Source of the DNA: Candidatus Nomurabacteria bacterium
GTDB lineage: Bacteria > Patescibacteriota > Minisyncoccia > Phycocordibacterales > UBA5272
DNA length: 64,000 nt
Direction of reading: 5' to 3'
Assembly (NCBI GenBank): GCA_040376695.1
Contig: JBEIQD010000002.1
Span: 114,436-178,435 of the forward strand
Shown: positions 6,856 through 30,322 of the stretch, piece after piece
Numbering within the stretch: position 1 is the first letter of the stretch
How the letters are laid out: each line of letters opens with the position of its first letter
The notes under the pieces: model-generated
What the model was told of the DNA's origin: nothing
The model's input: the letters and a program-made list of their open reading frames with translations, nothing else
The model's database searches: none
Translations under genes and position numbers: made by a program

Positions 6856-7410
6856 CTAGAGTTGCGTTTCTTTTAATACTTCATGTACATGCGCACGAAC
6901 CTGCGCATAAGAAAGAAGAAGATGGGTATATAAATCTCCAACATTCCAACCTATATACTCTTTGATGTCTTTTGCTCCAATTACTTTTGCATCAGCATAC
7001 CCAAGTTCAACAAGTACAATATAGTGTACCAATAGTCGCGCTTTTTGCTTATCAAACGTTGAAGCTTCACCAAGAAATTGAATCAATCTATCATAGAGAG
7101 CTTTATGCGCACCCTCACCTCGAATGAATCGTTTAATAAGATGTGTTACTTCTTGCAACATTTCACCTAAGCTTTCTGCCTCTTCTGCTCCCGTTAATCT
7201 CCACACTTCGCGGCCTTGTACAAGTGTAATAAGCGCAACAGATCGTGGGGTAATATGCGCTCGTAATTTACTTTCTAATTTACGAACACTTTTTGCGTGA
7301 ACCATCAGCAACCCAAACTCTCTAGTAAATACTTTATATACCCTATCATGCTCACCCTGATCAAAGGATTCTATTACAATTGCTTTTGTGGTGTATTTTT
7401 CAATAGCCAT
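6856..7410 (-). CDS. recO: DNA repair protein RecO (short form, OB-fold only)
   Basis: The N-terminus matches the RecO OB fold (KAIVIESFDQGEHDRVYKVFTREFG...VWRLTGAE). No C-terminal zinc finger. Confidence 0.7.
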   Translation of the reverse strand: MAIEKYTTKAIVIESFDQGEHDRVYKVFTREFGLLMVHAKSVRKLESKLRAHITPRSVALITLVQGREVWRLTGAEEAESLGEMLQEVTHLIKRFIRGEGAHKALYDRLIQFLGEASTFDKQKARLLVHYIVLVELGYADAKVIGAKDIKEYIGWNVGDLYTHLLLSYAQVRAHVHEVLKETQL

Positions 7411-10400
7411 TTATCGGATATCGAAGGCGATAGTGCCAGTCGATGTTTCTGCTGTGTATGTTCCACTTCCCTTTTCTACCGAACTAATTCGACATGTGTT
7501 CATAAGAAGAACCTTAAACTGTTCTGGGATCATGTACTCTGTGTTAAGAACAATTGAATCCTTTGGTGTAAGCCCCTTATCTTTACGAGCATCCTGAACT
7601 GCACGCATAAGATTACGAACATCTCCTTCTGCTTGGAGTGTGTCCGTTACAGCAGTATCAAGCACACAAACTTCTGTCTGAGTTTCATCAAATGAAATTT
7701 CCTTCACGTTAAGCTCATCAAGGATTGTTGAAACATATTCCTCTCCTATCTTCTCCTTAAGAGTAAGCTTCTGAAGAGGTTGCCTTACAGCAATCTTTGC
7801 TTGTGTACGAAGTGACAGTGCTACCGTCACAAGTTCACGAACCTTTTTCATGGTAACTAATAATTCAGTATCTACTGAGAAACTCTGAGGCCAGACTTCC
7901 AGATGCACGGATTCTTTTTCACCACCAACCACGCTGTACACTCGCTCAGCAACAAATGGCATCACAGGAGCAATTACTTTTGAAAGTGTTAATAGTACGT
8001 ATGTTAGTGTTTCGTAGGCTTGCTTCTTTTCCTCGACACTCACATCTCCCTTAAGGCGATCTCGGCTCCGTCTAACGTACCAAACAGACAAGTCATCAAT
8101 GAGCTGATCAATTGGATATGTTGCCTCATCAAGCATGTAGGTGTCATACCCTTTAGTTACTTTTGCAACAACCTCATGAACTCTTGATATGATCCATCTA
8201 TCTAAAACATTTGTAGAATTTATTGTTGCTTCCATGACACCTTCTCTGTTCATCTCATAAAGTGAGAGAACATTTTCTAGCCGAGATATAACTTTCTTGT
8301 ACACATCCTCCACAGTCTTATCAGTAAATAAAACATTTTCTCCCTTAACCACAGGGCTCGACAGGAGCGCATAACGCATTGCGTCTGCTCCATATTTTTC
8401 TACAAGCTCCATCGGGTCAGTATAGTTTTTATCGCTCTTTGAAAGTTTAAGACCTGATTCCGCCATCACAAGACCGTTCACTATAACGTGCTTATATGGA
8501 GCTTTATCAAACAATCCAACCCCTAAGTTAATAAGCGAGTAGAACCATCCACGTGTTTGGTCTAATCCTTCAGCAATAAATTCGGCTGGATAGTTCTTTT
8601 CAAAGATTTCTTTGTTCTCAAATGGATAGTGAAGTGACGCAAACGGCATAGATCCAGATTCAAACCAACAATCAAAAACATCTCCAATTCGTTTATAGGT
8701 TACTCCATCAATTTCCAGTTCTATTTCATCAATATACGGACGATGAAGATTAACAGCCCCTGTTTCATCTCGCGGAACGAGTTGAGGATGCACAGGCACC
8801 ACATGGGCGTGCGCAGGAGATGTGTCTTCGTGCATCATCATATCCGCAACAATTTCCTCATCAGTACGCAAATGAGCTGCTGCTTCAAGCATCCACACAG
8901 GAGATCCGTGTGTTACAAATAGAATCTTCTTACCTTCGTATTCTTTTTCACAGTCATGCAAGACCTGCATTGTGCGGTTCATAAGATCACGATGAGATTC
9001 CCCTTCTGGTAATTTAGTGTCGAGATCCATGAAATCAGCTCGCTGACGTACATGGAACTCATCAACACTTGTACCTGAAAAGATTCCCGTATCAAACTCA
9101 CGAAGCCGCTTATCAAAAACTGATTCTGCTCCACACATCTCTTTTATAATGCGAGCCGTTTCTTCTGTTCGAAGCAATGGTGAATACACGATAATATCTA
9201 TCCCTTGTTCTTTTGCAAAGTGCCCAGCGTGACGAGCTTGTTCTTTACCAGTTTCAGTAAGGTGGTTGTGTGGGTCACCATAACTATCCAACACTCGATT
9301 AATATTACTCTGCGCTTCACCGTGACGAATAGCAAAATACGTATTCTTTGGTTTATTTTTATTCAGCGCAGCAAGCTCTTTAAGTGAGCCAATGATTTTC
9401 ATATCCCCGGCTTCATTTTTCCACACAGGAAGAGGAGCACCCCAATATCGCGAACGTGATACCGCCCACTCATGAGCACCTTCAAGCCACTTACCAAATC
9501 TTCCATCTCTAATATGTGACGGAGTCCAGCCAATATTTTTATTTTCTGAAAGAAGTTTCTCTTTCATTTTAGGGACATCAACAAACCATGAAGATGTAGC
9601 GTAATTAAGAAGCGGTGTCTTACATCGCCAACATAATGGATATGAGTGAATAATTTTATGCTTCTCAAAAAGTTTTCCGTTATGAGCTAAATACTTAATG
9701 ATCTCAATATCAGCTGACTGTGTGTCATCTTTTTGCTTTACCTTCATTCCAACAAAATCAATCACCTCGGTTGTAAATGTTCCATCCATCTTCACATGCT
9801 TGATAACTGGAATTCTGTGTAACTTTGCAAGATCCATATCCTCTGCCCCAAAAGCTGGGGCTTCATGTGCAACACCTGTTCCAGTATCAAGCGTAATAAA
9901 ATCAGCATGCCAGATTTTCCAGATATTTTCTTTATTATCAATTTCTTTATCTACAAAATACGGGAATACTGGCTTGTATGATTTTCCAACAAGCGTTGAA
10001 CCTAGAAACATATCTTTCACCTCATACTTCATATCTTTCAATACATCTTCTTTTCTTTCATTAGCAAGAATATACATTCCATCCATTCCTTCAATCGACA
10101 CCTTTATATACTGAGCCGTCTCACAAAGTGCGAGCGCTGTGTTTCCAGGAAGTGTCCACGGTGTTGTAGTCCATGCAAGTACATACGTACCTGGCTCATC
10201 CGCTAATTCAAACTTTGCAGTTACAGAAAGATCAGTCACATCATGGTATTCCATTCCTACTTCAGATTGTGCAAGTGTTGTTTCGCAACGCGGACAGATG
10301 TGCATTATTTTATATCCCTCATAAGCAAGTCCCTTTTCATACAAAGTTTTCCATGCCCACCAAATACTTTCCGTATAAGTTGAATCCATTGTCTTATATG

Positions 10401-10851
10401 CATGCTCCATATCAACAAAACGTCCAACTCGTGGAACAACTTTTTTCCATTCTTCTTCATACTGAAGAACAGAATTAAATGCATCTTGATTAAACTTATC
10501 AATTCCAAACGCCTCAATGTCTTTTTTTGAAGCAAGCCCTAATTTCTTTTCAATAAGATTTTCAATAGGAAGACCGTGACAATCCCAACCCCAAATACGA
10601 CGAACGGAGTTACCTTTCATTGTCTGATATCGAGGAATAGCATCCTTGATGGTTCCTGCGAGAATGTGTCCATGGTGAGGAAGCCCTGTAGCAAATGGTG
10701 GCCCATCATAAAAAGAGAACGATCCTTTGGGTATTTCACTTGCGGGATTTTCTACTGACTTTTCAAAGATTTTATTCTCTTGCCAGAAAAGAAGTGTTTC
10801 TTGCTCTTTCTCGTTTATGGTTTTTGGTTTAGGTAAAGTATTGTCAGACAT
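7411..10851 (-). CDS. ileS: isoleucyl-tRNA synthetase (type 2) with an inserted histidine-phosphatase (PGM-family) domain
   Basis: 1146 aa with HIGH (PHHGHILAG), a CP1 editing region, GLKLSKS, and a type-2 C-terminal domain. Between PLPVW and HRPYID it has ~225 aa instead of the ~40 in Thermus IleRS. The insert contains RHGE...SPLLRTEETA...VTHG. Confidence 0.9.
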   Translation of the reverse strand: MSDNTLPKPKTINEKEQETLLFWQENKIFEKSVENPASEIPKGSFSFYDGPPFATGLPHHGHILAGTIKDAIPRYQTMKGNSVRRIWGWDCHGLPIENLIEKKLGLASKKDIEAFGIDKFNQDAFNSVLQYEEEWKKVVPRVGRFVDMEHAYKTMDSTYTESIWWAWKTLYEKGLAYEGYKIMHICPRCETTLAQSEVGMEYHDVTDLSVTAKFELADEPGTYVLAWTTTPWTLPGNTALALCETAQYIKVSIEGMDGMYILANERKEDVLKDMKYEVKDMFLGSTLVGKSYKPVFPYFVDKEIDNKENIWKIWHADFITLDTGTGVAHEAPAFGAEDMDLAKLHRIPVIKHVKMDGTFTTEVIDFVGMKVKQKDDTQSADIEIIKYLAHNGKLFEKHKIIHSYPLCWRCKTPLLNYATSSWFVDVPKMKEKLLSENKNIGWTPSHIRDGRFGKWLEGAHEWAVSRSRYWGAPLPVWKNEAGDMKIIGSLKELAALNKNKPKNTYFAIRHGEAQSNINRVLDSYGDPHNHLTETGKEQARHAGHFAKEQGIDIIVYSPLLRTEETARIIKEMCGAESVFDKRLREFDTGIFSGTSVDEFHVRQRADFMDLDTKLPEGESHRDLMNRTMQVLHDCEKEYEGKKILFVTHGSPVWMLEAAAHLRTDEEIVADMMMHEDTSPAHAHVVPVHPQLVPRDETGAVNLHRPYIDEIELEIDGVTYKRIGDVFDCWFESGSMPFASLHYPFENKEIFEKNYPAEFIAEGLDQTRGWFYSLINLGVGLFDKAPYKHVIVNGLVMAESGLKLSKSDKNYTDPMELVEKYGADAMRYALLSSPVVKGENVLFTDKTVEDVYKKVISRLENVLSLYEMNREGVMEATINSTNVLDRWIISRVHEVVAKVTKGYDTYMLDEATYPIDQLIDDLSVWYVRRSRDRLKGDVSVEEKKQAYETLTYVLLTLSKVIAPVMPFVAERVYSVVGGEKESVHLEVWPQSFSVDTELLVTMKKVRELVTVALSLRTQAKIAVRQPLQKLTLKEKIGEEYVSTILDELNVKEISFDETQTEVCVLDTAVTDTLQAEGDVRNLMRAVQDARKDKGLTPKDSIVLNTEYMIPEQFKVLLMNTCRISSVEKGSGTYTAETSTGTIAFDIR

Positions 10852-11075
10852 AGATGTGTAAATAAATAAAACTCGTCCACAGAAAACAATGTATATTGTT
10901 TTCCAAGGACGAGTTTCATGTTTGAAATCGTGGTACCACCTTGTTTTTAGGATATTTCTATCCCCTCATTGATAGGTTCTACTTACATTCTACAGAATGT
11001 GTTCTTCCTGAAGCTCGGGGGTGATTGGTCCCGTCGTTGCTGTGACTTTATAATACCTCACTAATTGATAAAGGT
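10852..11075 (-). promoter_or_regulatory. T-box riboswitch leader (Ile-specific) with intrinsic terminator, upstream of ileS
   Basis: The minus-strand RNA contains AAACAAGGUGGUACCACG (T-box consensus) and a terminator hairpin AAACUCGUCC...GGACGAGUUUUAUUU just 5' of the ileS AUG. A candidate specifier is AUC-A in CCAAUCACCC. The UGGU acceptor-pairing box fits an A73 discriminator. Confidence 0.7.
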
Positions 11076-11085
11076 AAACAGGCAA

Positions 11086-12840
11086 TTACATCCGACTTGG
11101 GGCAACAATGCCGAGCGTATAGAGGCCGTGCGCCAAGATGTTTTTCGTAGCCGTTGCCAACATAACGTAATACGCACTTGTTTCTGCGTCCTCCTCATTC
11201 ACAATTTGTACACGTCCATACATATTGTTAAACGCACGAGTAAGTACAAGAAGGTGTTGAACGATGTGATGTGGACCCATGTCTTTGTACGCCTTCTGTA
11301 GCACTTGTGTATACCCAATGATAACTTGCTCAAGCTCACGTTCAGGGTGTTCTATTGCATAACTCTCAATTGAGATTCCTGCTTCTTCTGCTTTATCAAG
11401 CAACGCCGATAGTCTGGCATGTGTATATTGAAGATACGGCCCTGAATCACCTTCAAATGAAAGAGACTTCTCAAGATCAAAAATCATATCCTTTCCTGGG
11501 GCTGATTTAAGAATTGAAAACTTAATTGCTCCGACAGCGATATCATTGATGAGCTGTGCCTTCTGCCCCTCTCGCACTTTCATGTCTTCCAATCGCACAG
11601 CGATACGCTCACTTACTGTGGCGATGAGCTCTTCTGCAGGAATCACATTACCTTTTCGAGATGACATCTTCCCTTCTGGTAAACGAAGCATCCCGTGAGA
11701 AACATGAAGTAATTTATCAGCAAGTGGTTTATCTATCTGCTCAAATACCGCTTTCATCACTTTGAAATACTCATCGATTTCTTTTGCGGTCACAACAACA
11801 GAAAGAATAGAATCTGGAACGAGGAGATCTTTCTTGTAGGTATTACCCAGTTCCTTTGCTTCATACGTCGGAAGTCCTTGGGAGTTTATGAATACACGAG
11901 TATGCAATCCAACATCCTCACCCTTAAATACAACTGCTCCGTCTGACTCGTGGAAAACAGTACCGATATTCTCTTTAACAATTTGCGCGCCGTCTTTTCC
12001 AACCTCACTTTCAAAAATATAGTGATCAAACTGCGTTCCAAGTTTTTCATAGATCGTCTCAAAGTAATCAAGGCTCCACATTTTACCAAGGTCATATAAA
12101 CGATTTATTTCTGAATCCTTCTTTTCGAAAATCTTTTTGTTAATGTCTTTAAAGGCGTTCTTCTTATCTTCTAGCGTTGCAAACGTATAAAGTTCCTCAT
12201 CTGCAAACATGGTATTACCAAGAGCGTAACAAGCACCAAGAAATTGCACCTTATGCACTAGCGGAGTTTCTTCATTAAAGAAGACATCAATCTCTTTATT
12301 TTCATTCTCATGAGCAAGCTTCCACTGAATTCCAAAAATTGCCTGCGCAACATGCATACCAACATCTCCTTGGTAACACACACGGGTTACATCATGCCCT
12401 CCTGCTTCATAAATACGCGCGACTGATTCTCCAATTGCATTCGGTACAAGGTGTCCAATATGGAAAAGCTTGAATGGATTTGGGTCGGTATATTCAACAA
12501 TTACTTTTCCTTTTCCACCAACGTTAGTAATATCACTGAGCGCAACTGATTCTGCTTCATCAGTTCGTACATCATCTTTCAAAAAGAAATTAATAAATCC
12601 AGGTCCTGCCACTTCAGCTTTTTCTACAACATCTTCCAACTCGGTCATAAGTGTAGAAATAAGCTGCTCTGCAGTTTCCTTAGGAGATACGCCTGTTTGT
12701 TTTGAAAGAAGGAAAGCTACGTTTGTGGCGTAGTCACCATGAAGACTGTCTTCTGGCATATCCAAAGAAAAAGAAGGCTCAACCCCTTTTTCCTGACATA
12801 GTTCTGCAAGTGCGTCTTTGATGGTCTCGTACGAATTCAT
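11086..12840 (-). CDS. argS: arginyl-tRNA synthetase
   Basis: 584 aa with a HIGH motif (FHIGHLVPNAIG), a DALR anticodon-binding C-terminus, and a terminal ...RM. Confidence 0.9.
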   Translation of the reverse strand: MNSYETIKDALAELCQEKGVEPSFSLDMPEDSLHGDYATNVAFLLSKQTGVSPKETAEQLISTLMTELEDVVEKAEVAGPGFINFFLKDDVRTDEAESVALSDITNVGGKGKVIVEYTDPNPFKLFHIGHLVPNAIGESVARIYEAGGHDVTRVCYQGDVGMHVAQAIFGIQWKLAHENENKEIDVFFNEETPLVHKVQFLGACYALGNTMFADEELYTFATLEDKKNAFKDINKKIFEKKDSEINRLYDLGKMWSLDYFETIYEKLGTQFDHYIFESEVGKDGAQIVKENIGTVFHESDGAVVFKGEDVGLHTRVFINSQGLPTYEAKELGNTYKKDLLVPDSILSVVVTAKEIDEYFKVMKAVFEQIDKPLADKLLHVSHGMLRLPEGKMSSRKGNVIPAEELIATVSERIAVRLEDMKVREGQKAQLINDIAVGAIKFSILKSAPGKDMIFDLEKSLSFEGDSGPYLQYTHARLSALLDKAEEAGISIESYAIEHPERELEQVIIGYTQVLQKAYKDMGPHHIVQHLLVLTRAFNNMYGRVQIVNEEDAETSAYYVMLATATKNILAHGLYTLGIVAPSRM

Positions 12841-12915: not shown

Positions 12916-13506
12916 TCAGCCTGCGACGGCGAGCTCTTTTTCAAGATGATGGGCAACAACATCCCGAAGCTTCTGTGAAGCTTCAATTGGATCAGTTGCA
13001 TCGATATACACGACCTCGGTCTTCCATGGAAGGAAACCTGTATTTAGGGCGCGGGCCACATTTCTGAAAGCCATACTCACCCGCTCATCAGCATCCTTGT
13101 GGGTGAAGATGATAAACAGTGTTGGTTTCCCAACAAGCTGTTCACGTCCGAAGGCAGCATGGAGCAAGCTTGATTCCCCAGGCGCCATTTCATGCCTCGC
13201 AAGAAGCGTGTATCCGAGCGAATCACAAATGACATGTTCGCCTCGCTCGAGCGCAGGACGAATAATCTGCGCTTCATGATCAATACGGAGCGCCCAAATG
13301 AGATGACGCTCAATCTCAGGAACGCTTGTTGCAGAATCTTCATGTAGGAGCGTTCGCAGTTTTTCCGCAAACGGTGTACCTCCTGGTTCGCGAGTCTGCA
13401 AGATATTATTTTCTCCAGTTCTCTTGGGTAAGTACTTGAGTACCGTGCAGGCATCGTTACCTGCCCTATCAACGACGCCAGCAATCACAATGAATTTTGG
13501 TTCCAT
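12916..13506 (-). CDS. thymidylate-kinase-like protein with degenerate P-loop (putative pseudokinase)
   Basis: 196 aa. The bacterial-type Tmk motif TREPGGT is conserved. The P-loop reads IVIAGVVDRAGNDA in place of IxxEGxDGxGKTT, so the Lys and Ser/Thr are replaced by Asn and Asp. GC is ~52%. Confidence 0.6.
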   Translation of the reverse strand: MEPKFIVIAGVVDRAGNDACTVLKYLPKRTGENNILQTREPGGTPFAEKLRTLLHEDSATSVPEIERHLIWALRIDHEAQIIRPALERGEHVICDSLGYTLLARHEMAPGESSLLHAAFGREQLVGKPTLFIIFTHKDADERVSMAFRNVARALNTGFLPWKTEVVYIDATDPIEASQKLRDVVAHHLEKELAVAG

Positions 13507-13636
13507 CAGAATCTCCTTGTTTAATAAAAGTACAATTTATACTTGCTCACACTAACACACAAAAATAACTATGTCGATGAAGCTCTATAGTAAAAGCCGA
13601 GTTCCACTACGTGGAACTCGGCTAGTTAATTACCTA

Positions 13637-14335
13637 TCAGATTTCAATGCCTTTTATTTGAAAGTGAGGCTTGATGTGCTTGAGCACTTCCAGATGGACA
13701 TCATCCCGTGACAGCTCGTGCTTGCCCTGGAGACATTCAACTACTTCCCACCCAAAGTGTTCAGCGTAAAAAATGCCACCCTCATGCCCCATGCGGACAT
13801 ACTCAGAATCACTTTCAACAGCATCAAGCTTGCTGCCGCCGCTATCAGAACGTTTTTGTGCCCGAGCACGAGAAAGCCAGAAAGGGATTTTGAGATAGAG
13901 CACGAACGCAGGCCTTGGAAGACCCATCGTTCCATACTCCAAATCGTAGAGCCACTTGCCATACCGCTCACGCTCTTCCGACGTACCAATCTTTCCACCT
14001 TGATGAAGCAGATTGGATTCGACATAGCGATCAAAGATCACAATGTCGTGTTCAGCAATGAGTCCCTCGAGATACTCTCGTGACTCACGCCGATCCATCG
14101 TGTACGGCAAACTCGCCGCATATGGATCAAGTTTCGCAAATTTGTACTTTGCGGCATCATCACCTTTCAGCGCTTCCCACAAAACCCAACCGCCCGTTGT
14201 CTCCTTGTAGCGAGGAAATGAAACACTTGCTACTTTGAAGCCTTTTGCCTCCAAGCTTTCCTTGAGGAGTTTGCTTTGTGTTTCCTTGCCTGCACCGTCA
14301 GAGCCTTCGATGGCAAGACTTATTTTTTTCGACAT
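13637..14335 (-). CDS. tmk: thymidylate kinase (type I/eukaryote-archaeal-like)
   Basis: Canonical P-loop ISLAIEGSDGAGKETQ, the DRY motif FDRYVESNLLHQGG, and a GLPRP lid. The start was set at MSKKISL. GC-rich. Confidence 0.75.
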   Translation of the reverse strand: MSKKISLAIEGSDGAGKETQSKLLKESLEAKGFKVASVSFPRYKETTGGWVLWEALKGDDAAKYKFAKLDPYAASLPYTMDRRESREYLEGLIAEHDIVIFDRYVESNLLHQGGKIGTSEERERYGKWLYDLEYGTMGLPRPAFVLYLKIPFWLSRARAQKRSDSGGSKLDAVESDSEYVRMGHEGGIFYAEHFGWEVVECLQGKHELSRDDVHLEVLKHIKPHFQIKGIEI

Positions 14336-14463
14336 CTCTTTCTCCTTCGCCCGCAGGCAGTAATATAAATGAACCTGCACCAAGGGTACAGGAAAGAAAG
14401 AGATGCCACAAACAAATAAAAAACAGGCACCGTCAAGGTGCCTGTTTGGAAAATTTCAGGCCA

Positions 14464-15822
14464 TTAAGCTTTCGCCACAATGTCCTGAGTGCCCCGCTTC
14501 ACATCAAACCGACCCATGTCGGATTCGTCGATGTAAACAGGGACGCCAATCTCACGGATCTGCTTGCCCATCTCTTGCGCTACTTCGCGGAGCGTAGGAT
14601 GAACAGTAGAACCAGAGCGAAGCTCCACAAGATACACCAAAGCCGGAAGGTCGCCTGTGACACGACAAGCAACTTGCTGCCCCATCGGAAGGTAGTACTG
14701 AAGGGCAGCTTCGCCATGATTGCTCACGTTTTGCTCCCACCAGTGCTTGATTTCCCTAACGAGCTTTTCCGCCTTCGCGCGAAGTTCAGGCCCCAACTGA
14801 TCAAGATACCAGTCCTGGAAACCGATATTCGGCGTCAACATTGGCATGCGCTGAATTACAGCACGTTGCCGTTGGATATCACGGAAAGATCCGAAATCGA
14901 GCGCAAACTCGAATTGGAGCGTCCCCGCTTCAGCCAAATGCTTCGGCAGTTCAGTCCGCGCTGGTCGCGAATTTATTGCCTCAGAATGTTCAAGCACAAG
15001 CTTGGCATCAAGCGTATTGCGGGTCAGGATTACTTCTTCCTTCCAATACATCGGCGAGAAATAGTAATCCTTTTCCATGCAAACTTCGCGATATGTCTCG
15101 CTTGCCGCATAACGCTTATGACCGAACGAATTCGGATGCGCCTGCTGCAAAGCTTTCTCGATCATGTTGGCAATGTCGTGTACTTCCGAAAGCGGGTGAG
15201 CTCGCAACCAGCCGAGCTTGTCCGCCGCTTGCCGCAGGTTACTTGTCCAGGCCAGGTTTGTTGCGGCGCCGGCAGGCAAAAATGCGCGAAGAATATCGAA
15301 CGCGCGGGCAGCGATCGCCTTTTCGTAGACAGCTTCCTTTTCTTCCGGCTGCATCGGATACCTTGCCTTCAACTCTTCCTTGAGTTGAGGCATGGCTTCG
15401 ATATAGAACTTGCGCAACCATTCCTGCGGATTCTCCTCAGGTGACAGCTCAAGAAGATTGATGAATACTGCGACTGCAAAGTCCTGGTACCGCGTTGAAA
15501 ATTCCTGGCCACAATAGAGAGCCCAATCCTGGATCGCCTTGGCAACCAGCATGGACACACCTTCGATAAAGATGGTTGTGTTGCCACAATCACCGATAGA
15601 TTTGTGTCCATAGCCAACGTAGTACTGAGCCATGAACTTGCCAGAGCCGACTTCTGCCAGCTTCTTCAGGTGTGCAAGCACTGATTGCGGTGACCGCGAA
15701 TAGAGCGCCTGGAGCATGGCCAAATCTTCGGCTGTGATGATCGCCCCGTCATAAAGGACGAGAACGAACGGACCTTTGGTTGGGTCACCTTGGGTGAAAT
15801 GTTTAAGTTGGCTGATGTCCAT
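14464..15822 (-). CDS. thyX: flavin-dependent thymidylate synthase ThyX, tandem-fused (two ThyX domains), with degenerate RHR motifs
   Basis: 452 aa. Both halves align to ThyX. The N-half reads YGHKS...FIEGVSMLVAKAIQDWAL...EFSTRY...LRAFLPAGAATNLAWTSNLRQAADKLGWLRAHPLSEVHDIANMI. The C-half reads FEFALDFGSFRDIQRQRAV...YLPMGQQVACRVTGDLPALVYLVELRSGSTVHPTLREVAQEM. RHR is lost in the N-half (DWA) and reads RQR in the C-half. Confidence 0.7.
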   Translation of the reverse strand: MDISQLKHFTQGDPTKGPFVLVLYDGAIITAEDLAMLQALYSRSPQSVLAHLKKLAEVGSGKFMAQYYVGYGHKSIGDCGNTTIFIEGVSMLVAKAIQDWALYCGQEFSTRYQDFAVAVFINLLELSPEENPQEWLRKFYIEAMPQLKEELKARYPMQPEEKEAVYEKAIAARAFDILRAFLPAGAATNLAWTSNLRQAADKLGWLRAHPLSEVHDIANMIEKALQQAHPNSFGHKRYAASETYREVCMEKDYYFSPMYWKEEVILTRNTLDAKLVLEHSEAINSRPARTELPKHLAEAGTLQFEFALDFGSFRDIQRQRAVIQRMPMLTPNIGFQDWYLDQLGPELRAKAEKLVREIKHWWEQNVSNHGEAALQYYLPMGQQVACRVTGDLPALVYLVELRSGSTVHPTLREVAQEMGKQIREIGVPVYIDESDMGRFDVKRGTQDIVAKA

Positions 15823-29820: not shown

Positions 29821-30322
29821 GATATGTAAAAGATCTGGTGGGCAAACAAAAAGCCCATTACCAGTTATGGTCGTAAGACCAACATGTGCCTTTCGACACA
29901 CGACACTCAGCATGCCCACTGATAATGGGTTCTTTATTGCTGAGTGATTTTTAAAACCATACCTTAATGTTTCCACTAAGGGTTAGGTCAGAATTACACG
30001 TTATTAAGTTGTAGTAACAAGGTTATTATAGCATTTATCAATTCCTGTCACTGCTGTTACACCAAAAGTGCTATCACAGGGCAATATACGTGTTATCACG
30101 GGAGAAAGTAGGCGCACATTAATAAGCTAAGCCCTTGAAAAATAAAGAGAAGATCAGTGAAATAGTATAAAAAGAATTACTTTTACTCTCTATGGGTCTA
30201 TTTTAAGGCTTATAGAGGGTGGGGTGGGTGGTTCCCCTTTCGTTTAGAGCTTAATTATTAGGTACCCATCGGAAACGCTATGCAATTTTTAATTTATGTA
30301 TAACAAAATCTGAAAAGTCGCT

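What the first reader, a model, noticed from the sequence alone, without database searches (positions are those of the whole stretch)
8782..9339. Isoleucyl-tRNA synthetase carries an internal histidine-phosphatase (PGM-family) domain in place of the zinc knuckle
The IleS ORF is 1146 aa. Its HIGH and KMSKS motifs, CP1 region and type-2 C-terminus are all intact. Between the conserved ...WGAPLPVW and HRPYIDE... blocks it has ~225 residues, against ~37 in Thermus-type IleRS. The extra segment reads TYFAIRHGEAQSN...LTETGKEQA...YSPLLRTEETA...ILFVTHGSPVW. This is a complete branch-1 histidine-phosphatase catalytic core, with the RHG nucleophile His, Arg, and the second His in THG. The Cys ligands of the zinc-binding insertion normally at this spot are absent. 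I am not aware of a described phosphatase-aaRS fusion of this kind. It could add a dephosphorylation or editing-like activity, or a regulatory one, to the synthetase. Possible substrates are a phosphorylated intermediate, a tRNA 3'/2' phosphate, or an alarmone. Or it could be a structural replacement.
Basis: partly seen in the sequence, partly recalled or inferred. Interest (0 to 1): 0.75.

Follow-up and report, generated by a model that had tools for sequence, protein, structure and literature searches.

The report
Histidine phosphatase nested inside IleRS
This Parcubacteria isoleucyl-tRNA synthetase carries a complete, strongly conserved histidine-phosphatase domain inserted in a surface loop, and in related bacteria the same phosphatase is a separate gene right next to the synthetase gene, which points to an undescribed partnership between the two enzymes.

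Summary

It is not an artefact. All 120 best homologs and all 80 retained GTDB species loci (Parcubacteria/Paceibacteria) share the architecture. The catalytic residues R509, H510, N516, R561, E585 and H648 are invariant in all 121 close homologs and retained in essentially all 181 embedded copies. dN/dS of the insert is 0.028, as low as the synthetase core.

New here: 11 of 11 closest free-standing homologs are encoded next to an insert-less ileS, usually 1-70 nt upstream, between argS and ileS in the same syntenic block. None of 81 nested loci has a separate copy nearby. So the domain is the fused form of an ileS-linked phosphatase gene. Some lineages carry two copies, both catalytically intact.

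The substrate is unknown. The fold points to a small phosphomonoester or nucleotide. A passenger fusion without mechanistic coupling is not excluded. I found no paper describing this.

The parts
7411..10851 (-). ileS: 1146-aa type-2 isoleucyl-tRNA synthetase with a nested phosphatase domain
   Evidence: best PDB matches are IleRS2 8c8u (E=5e-206) and eukaryote/Thermus-type IleRS
9421..10851 (-). aa 1-477: first Rossmann half, CP core, CP1 editing domain, CP2, up to ..WGAPLPVW. Includes HHGH at 10666-10677, the first zinc site CPRC 10285-10296 and CWRC 9622-9633, and TTTPWT at 10153-10170
   Evidence: these motifs are invariant in 121 homologs
9343..9420 (-). CP3 N-arm (aa 478-503, KNEAGDMKIIGSLKELAALNKNKPKN): a beta-hairpin plus helix that carries CxxC in insert-less relatives; no Cys here
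8782..9342 (-). Branch-1 histidine phosphatase domain (aa 504-690). RHG 9319-9327 (nucleophile H510), N516 9304-9306, R561 9169-9171, E585 9097-9099, E618 8998-9000, H648 8908-8910
8686..8781 (-). CP3 C-arm (aa 691-722, LVPRDETGAVNLHRPYIDEIELEIDGVTYKRI): the second beta-hairpin, which carries CxC/CxxC in insert-less relatives; no Cys here
7414..8685 (-). aa 723-1146: second Rossmann half (KLSKS at 8434-8448), anticodon-binding domain, type-2 C-terminal domain (DUF5915)
10902..11046 (-). Reduced T-box-like leader upstream of ileS: short Stem I hairpin with AUC-A in its loop, the GGUGGUACCACG box, and a terminator hairpin plus U-run reaching about 10870. The nested phosphatase would be expressed under the same control as IleRS
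   Evidence: RF00230 at 33.6 bits, E=6e-6, below the gathering score of 93; fold z=-4.4; motif found upstream of ileS in 15 of 73 nested loci
11086..12840 (-). argS, the upstream syntenic neighbour. In split genomes the free-standing phosphatase gene lies between argS and ileS
6856..7410 (-). recO-like gene, the downstream syntenic neighbour (synteny argS-ileS-recO-DUF11 protein-AI-2E transporter)

Best explanation
SHOWN: The window encodes a bifunctional polypeptide. It is a normal type-2 IleRS whose CP3 subdomain carries, at its tip, a complete PhoE/PspA/GpgP-like histidine phosphatase. This domain is the fused form of a phosphatase gene that in sister Patescibacteria is a separate gene next to ileS, often only 1-4 nt away. 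The two states are mutually exclusive, so phosphatase and IleRS form a conserved pair across Parcubacteria.

INFERRED: The domain is an active phosphomonoesterase using the standard mechanism. R509, R561, N516 and H648 hold the phosphate, H510 takes it as a phospho-histidine intermediate, and E585 acts as the acid/base. It works as an independent catalytic module held on the CP3 pedestal at one copy per IleRS. Its fold neighbours and full-size cap suggest a small phosphomonoester, possibly a nucleotide-type compound made or met at the synthetase, and not a protein or RNA end. The substrate itself is not identified.
For: 2. Selection for catalysis: R509, H510, N516, R561, E585, E618 and H648 are 121/121 in close homologs. 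They are retained in essentially all 181 embedded copies, from 76 GTDB species loci and 105 copies in 50%-identity cluster representatives, even though overall domain identity is only about 35%. dN/dS is 0.028 for the insert against 0.019 and 0.058 for the synthetase parts.
3. Lineage-wide: all 120 best homologs and all 80 retained GTDB loci carry it. Named taxa include Nomura-, Kaiser-, Adler-, Vogel-, Lloyd-, Taylor- and Yonathbacteria.
4. Rosetta-stone evidence: 11 of 11 free-standing relatives examined are next to an insert-less ileS. Ten are upstream on the same strand: seven directly adjacent (a 7-nt overlap to a 118-nt gap) and three separated by one to three inserted genes. One is convergent. 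Where upstream sequence is available they lie between argS and ileS. None of 81 nested loci has a separate copy within 6 kb, and the synteny is shared.
5. Repeated elaboration in the same host protein: there are tandem copies at CP3 (P0147 clade) and a second-site copy between the KMSKS half and the anticodon-binding domain (P0163, P0188, P0239). Both copies are catalytically intact, and they occur on contigs up to 1.06 Mb.
6. The domain is mildly acidic (net charge -11; family median -3), which does not favour generic RNA binding.
Confidence: 0.55

Rival explanations
1. Passenger fusion. An unrelated housekeeping phosphatase that happened to sit next to ileS was moved into the permissive CP3 loop by local duplication and deletion. 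Both activities are needed by the cell but are mechanistically independent.
For: The whole argS-ileS-recO-DUF11 block is syntenic without any known functional link. CP3 is a naturally variable, tolerant subdomain (PMC7191050). The nearest structures are ordinary metabolic phosphatases. The insert evolves faster than the N-terminal core in mean conservation across the 121 homologs (0.51 against 0.80 agreement with the window's residue).
Against: A nested insertion needs at least two rearrangements in an essential gene. Yet the fusion is fixed class-wide, was elaborated again in the same protein (tandem and second-site copies), and appears interleaved with split lineages on the IleRS tree (no support values). 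Every long protein among the 150 best hits of the insert-only search was an IleRS, bar three that are ambiguous: P0129, P0210 and P0240 showed no IleRS block in the local classification. In several split genomes the two genes are only 1-4 nt apart.
Confidence: 0.3
2. The phosphatase acts on a macromolecule in the charging cycle. It could remove a 2'/3'-phosphate from the tRNA-Ile acceptor end (end healing), or dephosphorylate IleRS itself or another translation factor, for example to counter kinase toxins of the HipA/HipT/Doc type. That comparison is from my own knowledge.
Against: The best fold matches, with full-length alignment, are small-molecule phosphatases. SixA aligns over only 132 residues. 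The domain is acidic, not basic. The papers read describe no CP3 contact with tRNA. There is no evident reason why only IleRS would need this.
Confidence: 0.12
3. Structural replacement. The domain only stabilises CP3 after loss of the zinc site, or mediates dimerisation, and catalysis is irrelevant.
For: The Cys ligands are lost in about 95% of nested proteins. PhoE-type phosphatases are typically dimers (own knowledge), and tandem copies exist.
Against: All catalytic residues are invariant across about 35%-identical copies, and in both copies of the double variants. Three homologs keep the zinc Cys together with the insert. The free-standing form retains the same catalytic residues. One split-lineage IleRS (L096) has also lost the Cys without any insert.
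Confidence: 0.03
4. It is the 'missing' cofactor-dependent phosphoglycerate mutase of Parcubacteria glycolysis, hidden inside IleRS.
For: PGM was reported absent from several shallow Parcubacteria clades, possibly through divergence (PMC7304191). The domain belongs to the PGM superfamily.
Against: dPGM equivalog models score far below their cutoffs: 39.8 against 316, dPGM_arch 77.7 against 225, GpmB 85 against 261. The motif after the acid Glu is EFDTG, not the ERHYG of mutases (from the sequence plus my own knowledge of dPGM). The top structural neighbours are phosphatases.
Confidence: 0.03
5. Assembly or frameshift artefact, or a mobile element (intein-like) interrupting ileS.
For: None beyond the unusual length.
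Against: The ORF is uninterrupted. A 95%-identical 1146-aa protein comes from an independent NCBI assembly with the same gene neighbours. More than 120 homolog clusters come from NCBI, JGI, ENA and Logan. No Hint/intein or endonuclease domain is found, and the junctions lack intein Cys/Ser and His-Asn motifs.
Confidence: 0.01

Closest known systems
PhoE / PspA / GpgP-type branch-1 histidine phosphatases (PDB 1h2e, 4ij5, 6s2q/4qih; also CobC 6e4b and HFP 9mmh)
   Different: Those are free-standing enzymes of about 200 aa, whereas this one is nested inside another enzyme. Sequence identity is only 20-25%. No NCBIfam equivalog cutoff is reached, so no specific substrate can be transferred.
Type-2 IleRS (Priestia megaterium IleRS2 8c8u; Thermus thermophilus 1ile, whose CP3 binds zinc)
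   Different: CP3 here lacks the four Cys and carries a phosphatase domain of about 190 residues at its tip. No solved IleRS has this.
NCBIfam NF040702 'isoleucine--tRNA ligase, N-acetyltransferase domain-containing'
   Same: A curated precedent for an IleRS carrying an extra enzyme domain.
   Different: The domain is different (GNAT) and so is the site. That family has a normal CP3 of about 40 residues (profile positions 655-697), and its extra residues lie upstream of profile position 558.
End-to-end fusions of histidine phosphatase domains with nucleic-acid or nucleotide enzymes: Rv2228c RNase H-acid phosphatase (NF005567) and mycobacterial MutT1 Nudix-histidine phosphatase (PDB 9cxx, 3fjy)
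   Different: Those are terminal fusions, not nested insertions, and the partner is not an aminoacyl-tRNA synthetase.
Lineage-specific inserted or appended modules of class Ia synthetases (LeuRS leucine-specific domain, eukaryotic UNE-I, bacterial C-terminal zinc-binding domain)
   Same: An idiosyncratic module inserted in, or appended to, the catalytic body of a class Ia synthetase (PMC11685878; own knowledge).
   Different: To my knowledge those modules are non-catalytic tRNA- or protein-binding elements. This one is a complete second enzyme with a conserved active site.

Membership tests
Histidine phosphatase superfamily, branch 1 (Pfam PF00300) | Profile score above the curated cutoff | tested here: met
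   111.9 bits against 21.7, E=4e-32, aa 507-660
Histidine phosphatase superfamily, branch 1 (Pfam PF00300) | RHG motif with the nucleophilic His, second Arg, second His, and acid Glu | tested here: met
   R509-H510-G511, R561, H648 and E585 (plus N516 and E618) are present, and are 121/121 in homologs
Histidine phosphatase superfamily, branch 1 (Pfam PF00300) | Alpha/beta/alpha fold of the family | tested here: met
Histidine phosphatase superfamily, branch 1 (Pfam PF00300) | Phosphatase activity through a phospho-histidine intermediate | not testable with these tools
   Needs an enzyme assay. It is inferred from the invariant residues and dN/dS 0.028
Cofactor-dependent phosphoglycerate mutase (dPGM / GpmA) | Equivalog model score at or above the cutoff | tested here: not met
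   NF002339 39.8 against 316; NF038349 77.7 against 225; GpmB NF002901 85.1 against 261
Isoleucyl-tRNA synthetase (TIGR00392) | Equivalog score at or above the cutoff; HIGH and KMSKS motifs; CP1 editing motifs | tested here: met
   816.2 bits against 621.4. HHGH 59-62, KLSKS 802-806, and WTTTPWTLP plus D338 are invariant
Type-2 (eukaryote-like / mupirocin-resistant type) IleRS | Closer to IleRS2/eukaryotic/Thermus IleRS than to type 1; type-2 C-terminal domain instead of the C-terminal zinc-binding domain | tested here: met
   8c8u E=5e-206 and 1ile 5e-190, against type-1 1ffy 6.5e-86; DUF5915 at 1062-1104
Zinc-binding CP3 subdomain (Thermus-type) | Four Cys ligands (CxxC ... CxC/CxxC) in the two CP3 arms | tested here: not met
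   The window has no Cys in aa 476-500 or 700-725. This holds for 115-117 of 121 homologs. Insert-less relatives keep the Cys
Rosetta-stone (fused versus split) gene pair | The same two components occur as separate genes in some genomes and as one polypeptide in others, in a mutually exclusive pattern | tested here: met
   11 of 11 free-standing relatives are next to an insert-less ileS. None of 81 nested loci has a free copy within 6 kb
Intein / mobile insertion | Hint domain; Cys/Ser at the N-junction; His-Asn plus Cys/Ser/Thr at the C-junction; homing endonuclease | tested here: not met
   No such Pfam hit. The junction sequences are ..KPKN|TYFAIRHG.. and ..VHPQ|LVPRDETG..
T-box leader (Rfam RF00230), side observation | Covariance-model score at or above the gathering score; T-box sequence, specifier, terminator/antiterminator | tested here: inconclusive
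   33.6 bits against the gathering score of 93, E=6e-6 in a 381-nt search, with Stem I reduced. The GGUGGUACCACG box, AUC-A in the hairpin loop and a strong terminator are present

The most novel reading that the evidence does not exclude
The phosphatase is a third active site of the synthetase, needed for productive Ile-tRNA formation in Parcubacteria. It might heal a phosphorylated tRNA-Ile acceptor end, remove an inhibitory phosphate from IleRS (immunity to kinase toxins), or destroy a phosphorylated by-product or inhibitor at the synthetic site. That would be a previously unknown class of aaRS-linked quality control or repair, present either as a nested domain or as a dedicated partner protein.
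Probability: 0.15. Interest if true: 0.9.

Novelty: new variant of a known kind. Interest (0 to 1): 0.72.

Why it matters
Aminoacyl-tRNA synthetases are among the best-studied enzymes, and I know of no case where one carries a conserved, catalytically intact phosphatase. Here the pairing holds across a whole class of the Candidate Phyla Radiation. It occurs either as a nested domain in at least 80 GTDB species representatives, or as a separate gene next to ileS, often only a few nucleotides away. Some lineages have even duplicated it inside the same protein.

That pattern argues that a phosphomonoester hydrolysis step is tied to IleRS in these reduced, symbiotic bacteria. Identifying the substrate could reveal a new aspect of tRNA charging, its quality control or its regulation, or an unexpected metabolic coupling. 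The split/fused pair also gives a ready experimental handle: two proteins to test for complex formation, and one polypeptide to mutate. It is also a clean natural example of an enzyme domain inserted at the tip of a zinc knuckle, followed by loss of the metal ligands.

Tried and rejected
1. The full-length AlphaFold2 model, meant to locate the phosphatase pocket relative to the synthetic and editing sites, was unusable. pTM was 0.51, the Rossmann core had pLDDT below 50, and Foldseek superpositions had rmsd of about 22 A. Coordinates are not exposed to scripts, so no geometry could be measured.
2. The afdb50 fold library was not available.
3. Nine literature searches found nothing on this architecture. 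The one paper linking IleRS and Parcubacteria was unrelated; it concerned SbzA and a Parcubacteria CDPS.
4. The idea that NCBIfam 'ileS_w_GNAT' has its GNAT domain at the same CP3 site was rejected. CP3 is of normal length in that profile.
5. The idea that intermediate-length hits (600-1000 aa) were other synthetases, or editing-domain-less IleRS, carrying the insert was rejected. They are contig-truncated IleRS fragments.
6. The hidden-dPGM idea was rejected on model scores and motifs.
7. Intein and artefact explanations were rejected.
8. A relic phosphatase gene in the argS-ileS spacer, or another paralog in the 64-kb window, was searched for and not found.
9. A T-box upstream of the free-standing phosphatase in split genomes was searched for and not detected.
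10. Pairwise identities could not resolve whether embedded copies are monophyletic relative to free copies: about 35% within the embedded class against 33% between classes. The IleRS NJ tree has no support values, so the number and direction of split/nested transitions remain open.
Full report
OBSERVATION. The window holds one uninterrupted 1146-aa ORF on the minus strand, 7411-10851. It is an isoleucyl-tRNA synthetase: TIGR00392 scores 816 bits against a cutoff of 621. Pfam splits the class I synthetase core around a His_Phos_1 match at aa 507-660 (E=4e-32, 111.9 bits against a cutoff of 21.7) and also finds Anticodon_1 and the type-2 C-terminal DUF5915. Exactly 225 residues lie between W477 of WGAPLPVW and H703 of HRPYID, and the range is 224-234 in all 121 homologs. 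HHGH, KLSKS, the CP1 editing motif (WTTTPWTLP, D338) and the first zinc site (CPRC/CWRC) are invariant.

IS IT REAL AND SELECTED? All 120 best homologs (64-95% identity, 1138-1202 aa, from NCBI, JGI, ENA and Logan) have the same domain set. A 95%-identical copy from an independent NCBI assembly has the same neighbours. A scan of one genome per GTDB species matched 599 stretches, of which 390 encode a relative. All 80 retained loci contain the nested architecture. Their record titles span Nomura-, Kaiser-, Adler-, Vogel-, Lloyd-, Taylor- and Yonathbacteria and Paceibacterota, which is the Parcubacteria/Paceibacteria radiation. Many other records carry a generic 'Saccharibacteria' label that I do not trust.

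An exhaustive search with the insert alone found 11,840 hits at E<=1e-3. Of the best 150 cluster representatives, about 85 are IleRS, or contig-truncated IleRS, with the domain at the same site. R509, H510, N516, R561, E585, E618 and H648 are 121/121 in the close set. They are retained in essentially all 181 embedded copies from the wide set, although the domains are only about 35% identical to each other. Between the window and its 95% relative, dN/dS is 0.028 for the insert (67.5 synonymous against 11.5 non-synonymous differences), 0.019 for the N-terminal core and 0.058 for the C-terminal part. The domain is therefore under strong purifying selection, including at its active site. A catalytically dead structural role is unlikely.

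THE KEY NEW RESULT: A SPLIT FORM NEXT TO ileS. The closest free-standing homologs (about 190 aa, 38-44% identical to the insert) are also patescibacterial; the names given include Staskawiczbacteria and 'Patescibacteria group'. I looked up the genomic position of eleven of them. Nine are from the P0132 family, spanning 42-100% identity. Two further top hits, P0125 and P0144, fall outside that family's best 120. All eleven are next to ileS. Ten lie upstream on the same strand. Seven of those are directly adjacent, from a 7-nt overlap to a 118-nt gap. In three, one to three genes have been inserted in between: a toxin-antitoxin pair plus an HD_3 gene, a CYTH gene, or an unknown 330-aa gene. One is convergent with ileS. 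Wherever upstream sequence is available, argS precedes the phosphatase.

The IleRS in these genomes is 818-983 aa and has no insert. Apart from L096, the examined ones keep the four-Cys CP3 knuckle. The surrounding synteny (argS, ileS, recO, a DUF11/CLIPPER protein, an AI-2E transporter) is the same as in the window. Conversely, none of the 81 nested loci, including the window, has a separate phosphatase ORF within about 6 kb. The window's 234-nt argS-ileS spacer holds no relic of one, and the whole 64-kb window has no other paralog. Fused and split states are thus mutually exclusive alternatives of one conserved gene pair, which is a Rosetta-stone pattern. On a rough neighbour-joining tree of the IleRS core, three split lineages form a divergent outgroup and three others are interleaved among nested clades. 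This hints at more than one transition, but the tree has no support values.

ELABORATIONS. Some IleRS relatives carry two phosphatase domains. One form has them in tandem at CP3 (P0147, 1468 aa, plus the fragments P0136, P0155, P0235 and P0257). The first copies group together at 52-69% identity and the second copies at 40-46%, so the duplication is old. The other form has one domain at CP3 and a second between the KMSKS half and the anticodon-binding domain (P0163, P0188, P0239, P0152). Both copies keep the catalytic residues. The P0188 cluster has six members on contigs up to 1.06 Mb. Repeated gain inside the same host protein argues for a benefit of having the activity on IleRS.

HOW IT MOST LIKELY WORKS. 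Shown: this is a canonical type-2 IleRS plus a complete, selected phosphatase module on CP3, equivalent to a separately encoded partner in sister lineages. Inferred: the module is an active phosphomonoesterase with the family mechanism. R509, R561, N516 and H648 bind the phosphate, H510 forms the phospho-enzyme, and E585 acts as the acid/base. It is held at one copy per synthetase.

Three things favour a small phosphomonoester, perhaps a nucleotide-type compound, over a protein or RNA end. The fold neighbours are small-molecule phosphatases, the cap region is full-sized, and the charge is mildly acidic (net -11; family median -3). Two split loci have another phosphohydrolase in the same slot, namely CYTH and HD_3. 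This fits a nucleotide or phosphate theme, but it is anecdotal. I put 0.55 on 'an active phosphatase that is a functional partner of IleRS, acting on a small substrate'. I put 0.30 on a passenger fusion made easy by adjacency and a tolerant loop, and 0.12 on a macromolecular substrate. The remaining few percent go to structural-only, hidden-dPGM and artefact readings. The main weakness is that I could not determine where the phosphatase pocket faces. The full-length model was unreliable, and the papers read for CP3 describe no CP3-tRNA contact. Conserved synteny of the whole block also weakens adjacency as evidence on its own.

COMPARISON WITH WHAT IS KNOWN. Both components belong to well-known families, and the membership tests are met for branch-1 histidine phosphatases and for type-2 IleRS. 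What I could not find described is their combination. Nine full-text searches returned nothing relevant. No solved structure has it, and source annotations call these proteins simply IleRS or 'class I tRNA ligase family protein'. The nearest precedents are the NCBIfam family of IleRS with a GNAT domain, which has a different domain at a different site, and terminal fusions of histidine phosphatases to RNase H (Rv2228c-type) or Nudix (MutT1-type) enzymes. I class it as a new variant of a known kind: an aaRS with an idiosyncratic module, but here the module is a second, conserved enzyme that also exists as a dedicated neighbouring gene.

SIDE OBSERVATION. The argS-ileS spacer contains a reduced T-box-like leader: a short Stem I hairpin with AUC-A in the loop, a GGUGGUACCACG box, and a strong terminator. 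Rfam T-box scores 33.6 bits, E=6e-6, below the gathering score, and the fold z-score is -4.4. The box motif occurs upstream of ileS in 15 of 73 nested loci, against a background of 0.009 per 600 nt, and in none of the split loci. If functional, it puts the nested phosphatase under tRNA-Ile charging control in this lineage.

Noticed in passing
window 10870-11046 (-), the argS-ileS spacer: A reduced T-box-like leader upstream of ileS. It has a short Stem I hairpin with an AUC-A (Ile) specifier in the loop, a GGUGGUACCACG box and a strong terminator plus U-run. Rfam T-box scores 33.6 bits (below the gathering score of 93), E=6e-6. The core motif is found upstream of ileS in 15 of 73 nested loci and in none of the split loci. 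T-boxes with a short Stem I are known from actinobacterial ileS (own knowledge); I do not know of a report from CPR bacteria.
   Followed up: partly
P0147 (1468 aa), P0163/P0188 (1419 aa), P0239 (1379 aa); fragments P0136, P0152, P0155, P0235, P0257: IleRS relatives with two histidine-phosphatase domains. Some have them in tandem at CP3. Others have a second copy between the KMSKS half and the anticodon-binding domain. Both copies are catalytically intact, and the P0188 cluster occurs on contigs up to 1.06 Mb.
   Followed up: partly
L091 5570-6160; L086 6652-7819; L092 5814-6806: In split genomes the slot between the phosphatase gene and ileS sometimes holds other genes: a CYTH triphosphatase-family gene (L091), an RHH/ParE toxin-antitoxin pair plus an HD_3 nucleotidase-like gene (L086), and an unknown 330-aa gene (L092).
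   Followed up: no
L096 2682-5609 (-): Here ileS is convergent with the argS-phosphatase pair and is called as two ORFs (412 aa N-part and 554 aa C-part, breaking near aa 420). It could be a split gene or a frameshift. Its CP3 lacks both the insert and the Cys ligands.
   Followed up: no
P0121 (1161 aa, ENA contig of 3.9 kb): An odd protein with an IleRS N-terminal block followed by three histidine-phosphatase domains that keep the core catalytic residues (the third has Ala at the N516 position), plus a fourth partial match, and no recognisable IleRS C-terminal half.
   Followed up: no
window 29867-29989 (-): A LOOT RNA (Rfam RF03000), 68.6 bits, above the gathering score of 46.4. This is a structured RNA of unknown function.
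   Followed up: no
window 14464-15822 (-) and 12916-14383 (-): A 452-aa ThyX-like protein with two Thy1 matches, about twice the usual length. Two adjacent thymidylate-kinase-like ORFs (196 and 248 aa) sit next to dUTPase and dCTP deaminase genes, forming a dTTP-synthesis cluster.
   Followed up: no
window 10666-10677 (HHGH) and homolog alignment position 62: The fourth residue of the HIGH signature is His in 93, Thr in 18 and Ser in 10 of 121 homologs. The second residue varies among Y, H, M and F. Altered HIGH motifs have been linked to mupirocin hyper-resistance in IleRS2 (titles of PDB 8c8w and 8c9f).
   Followed up: no
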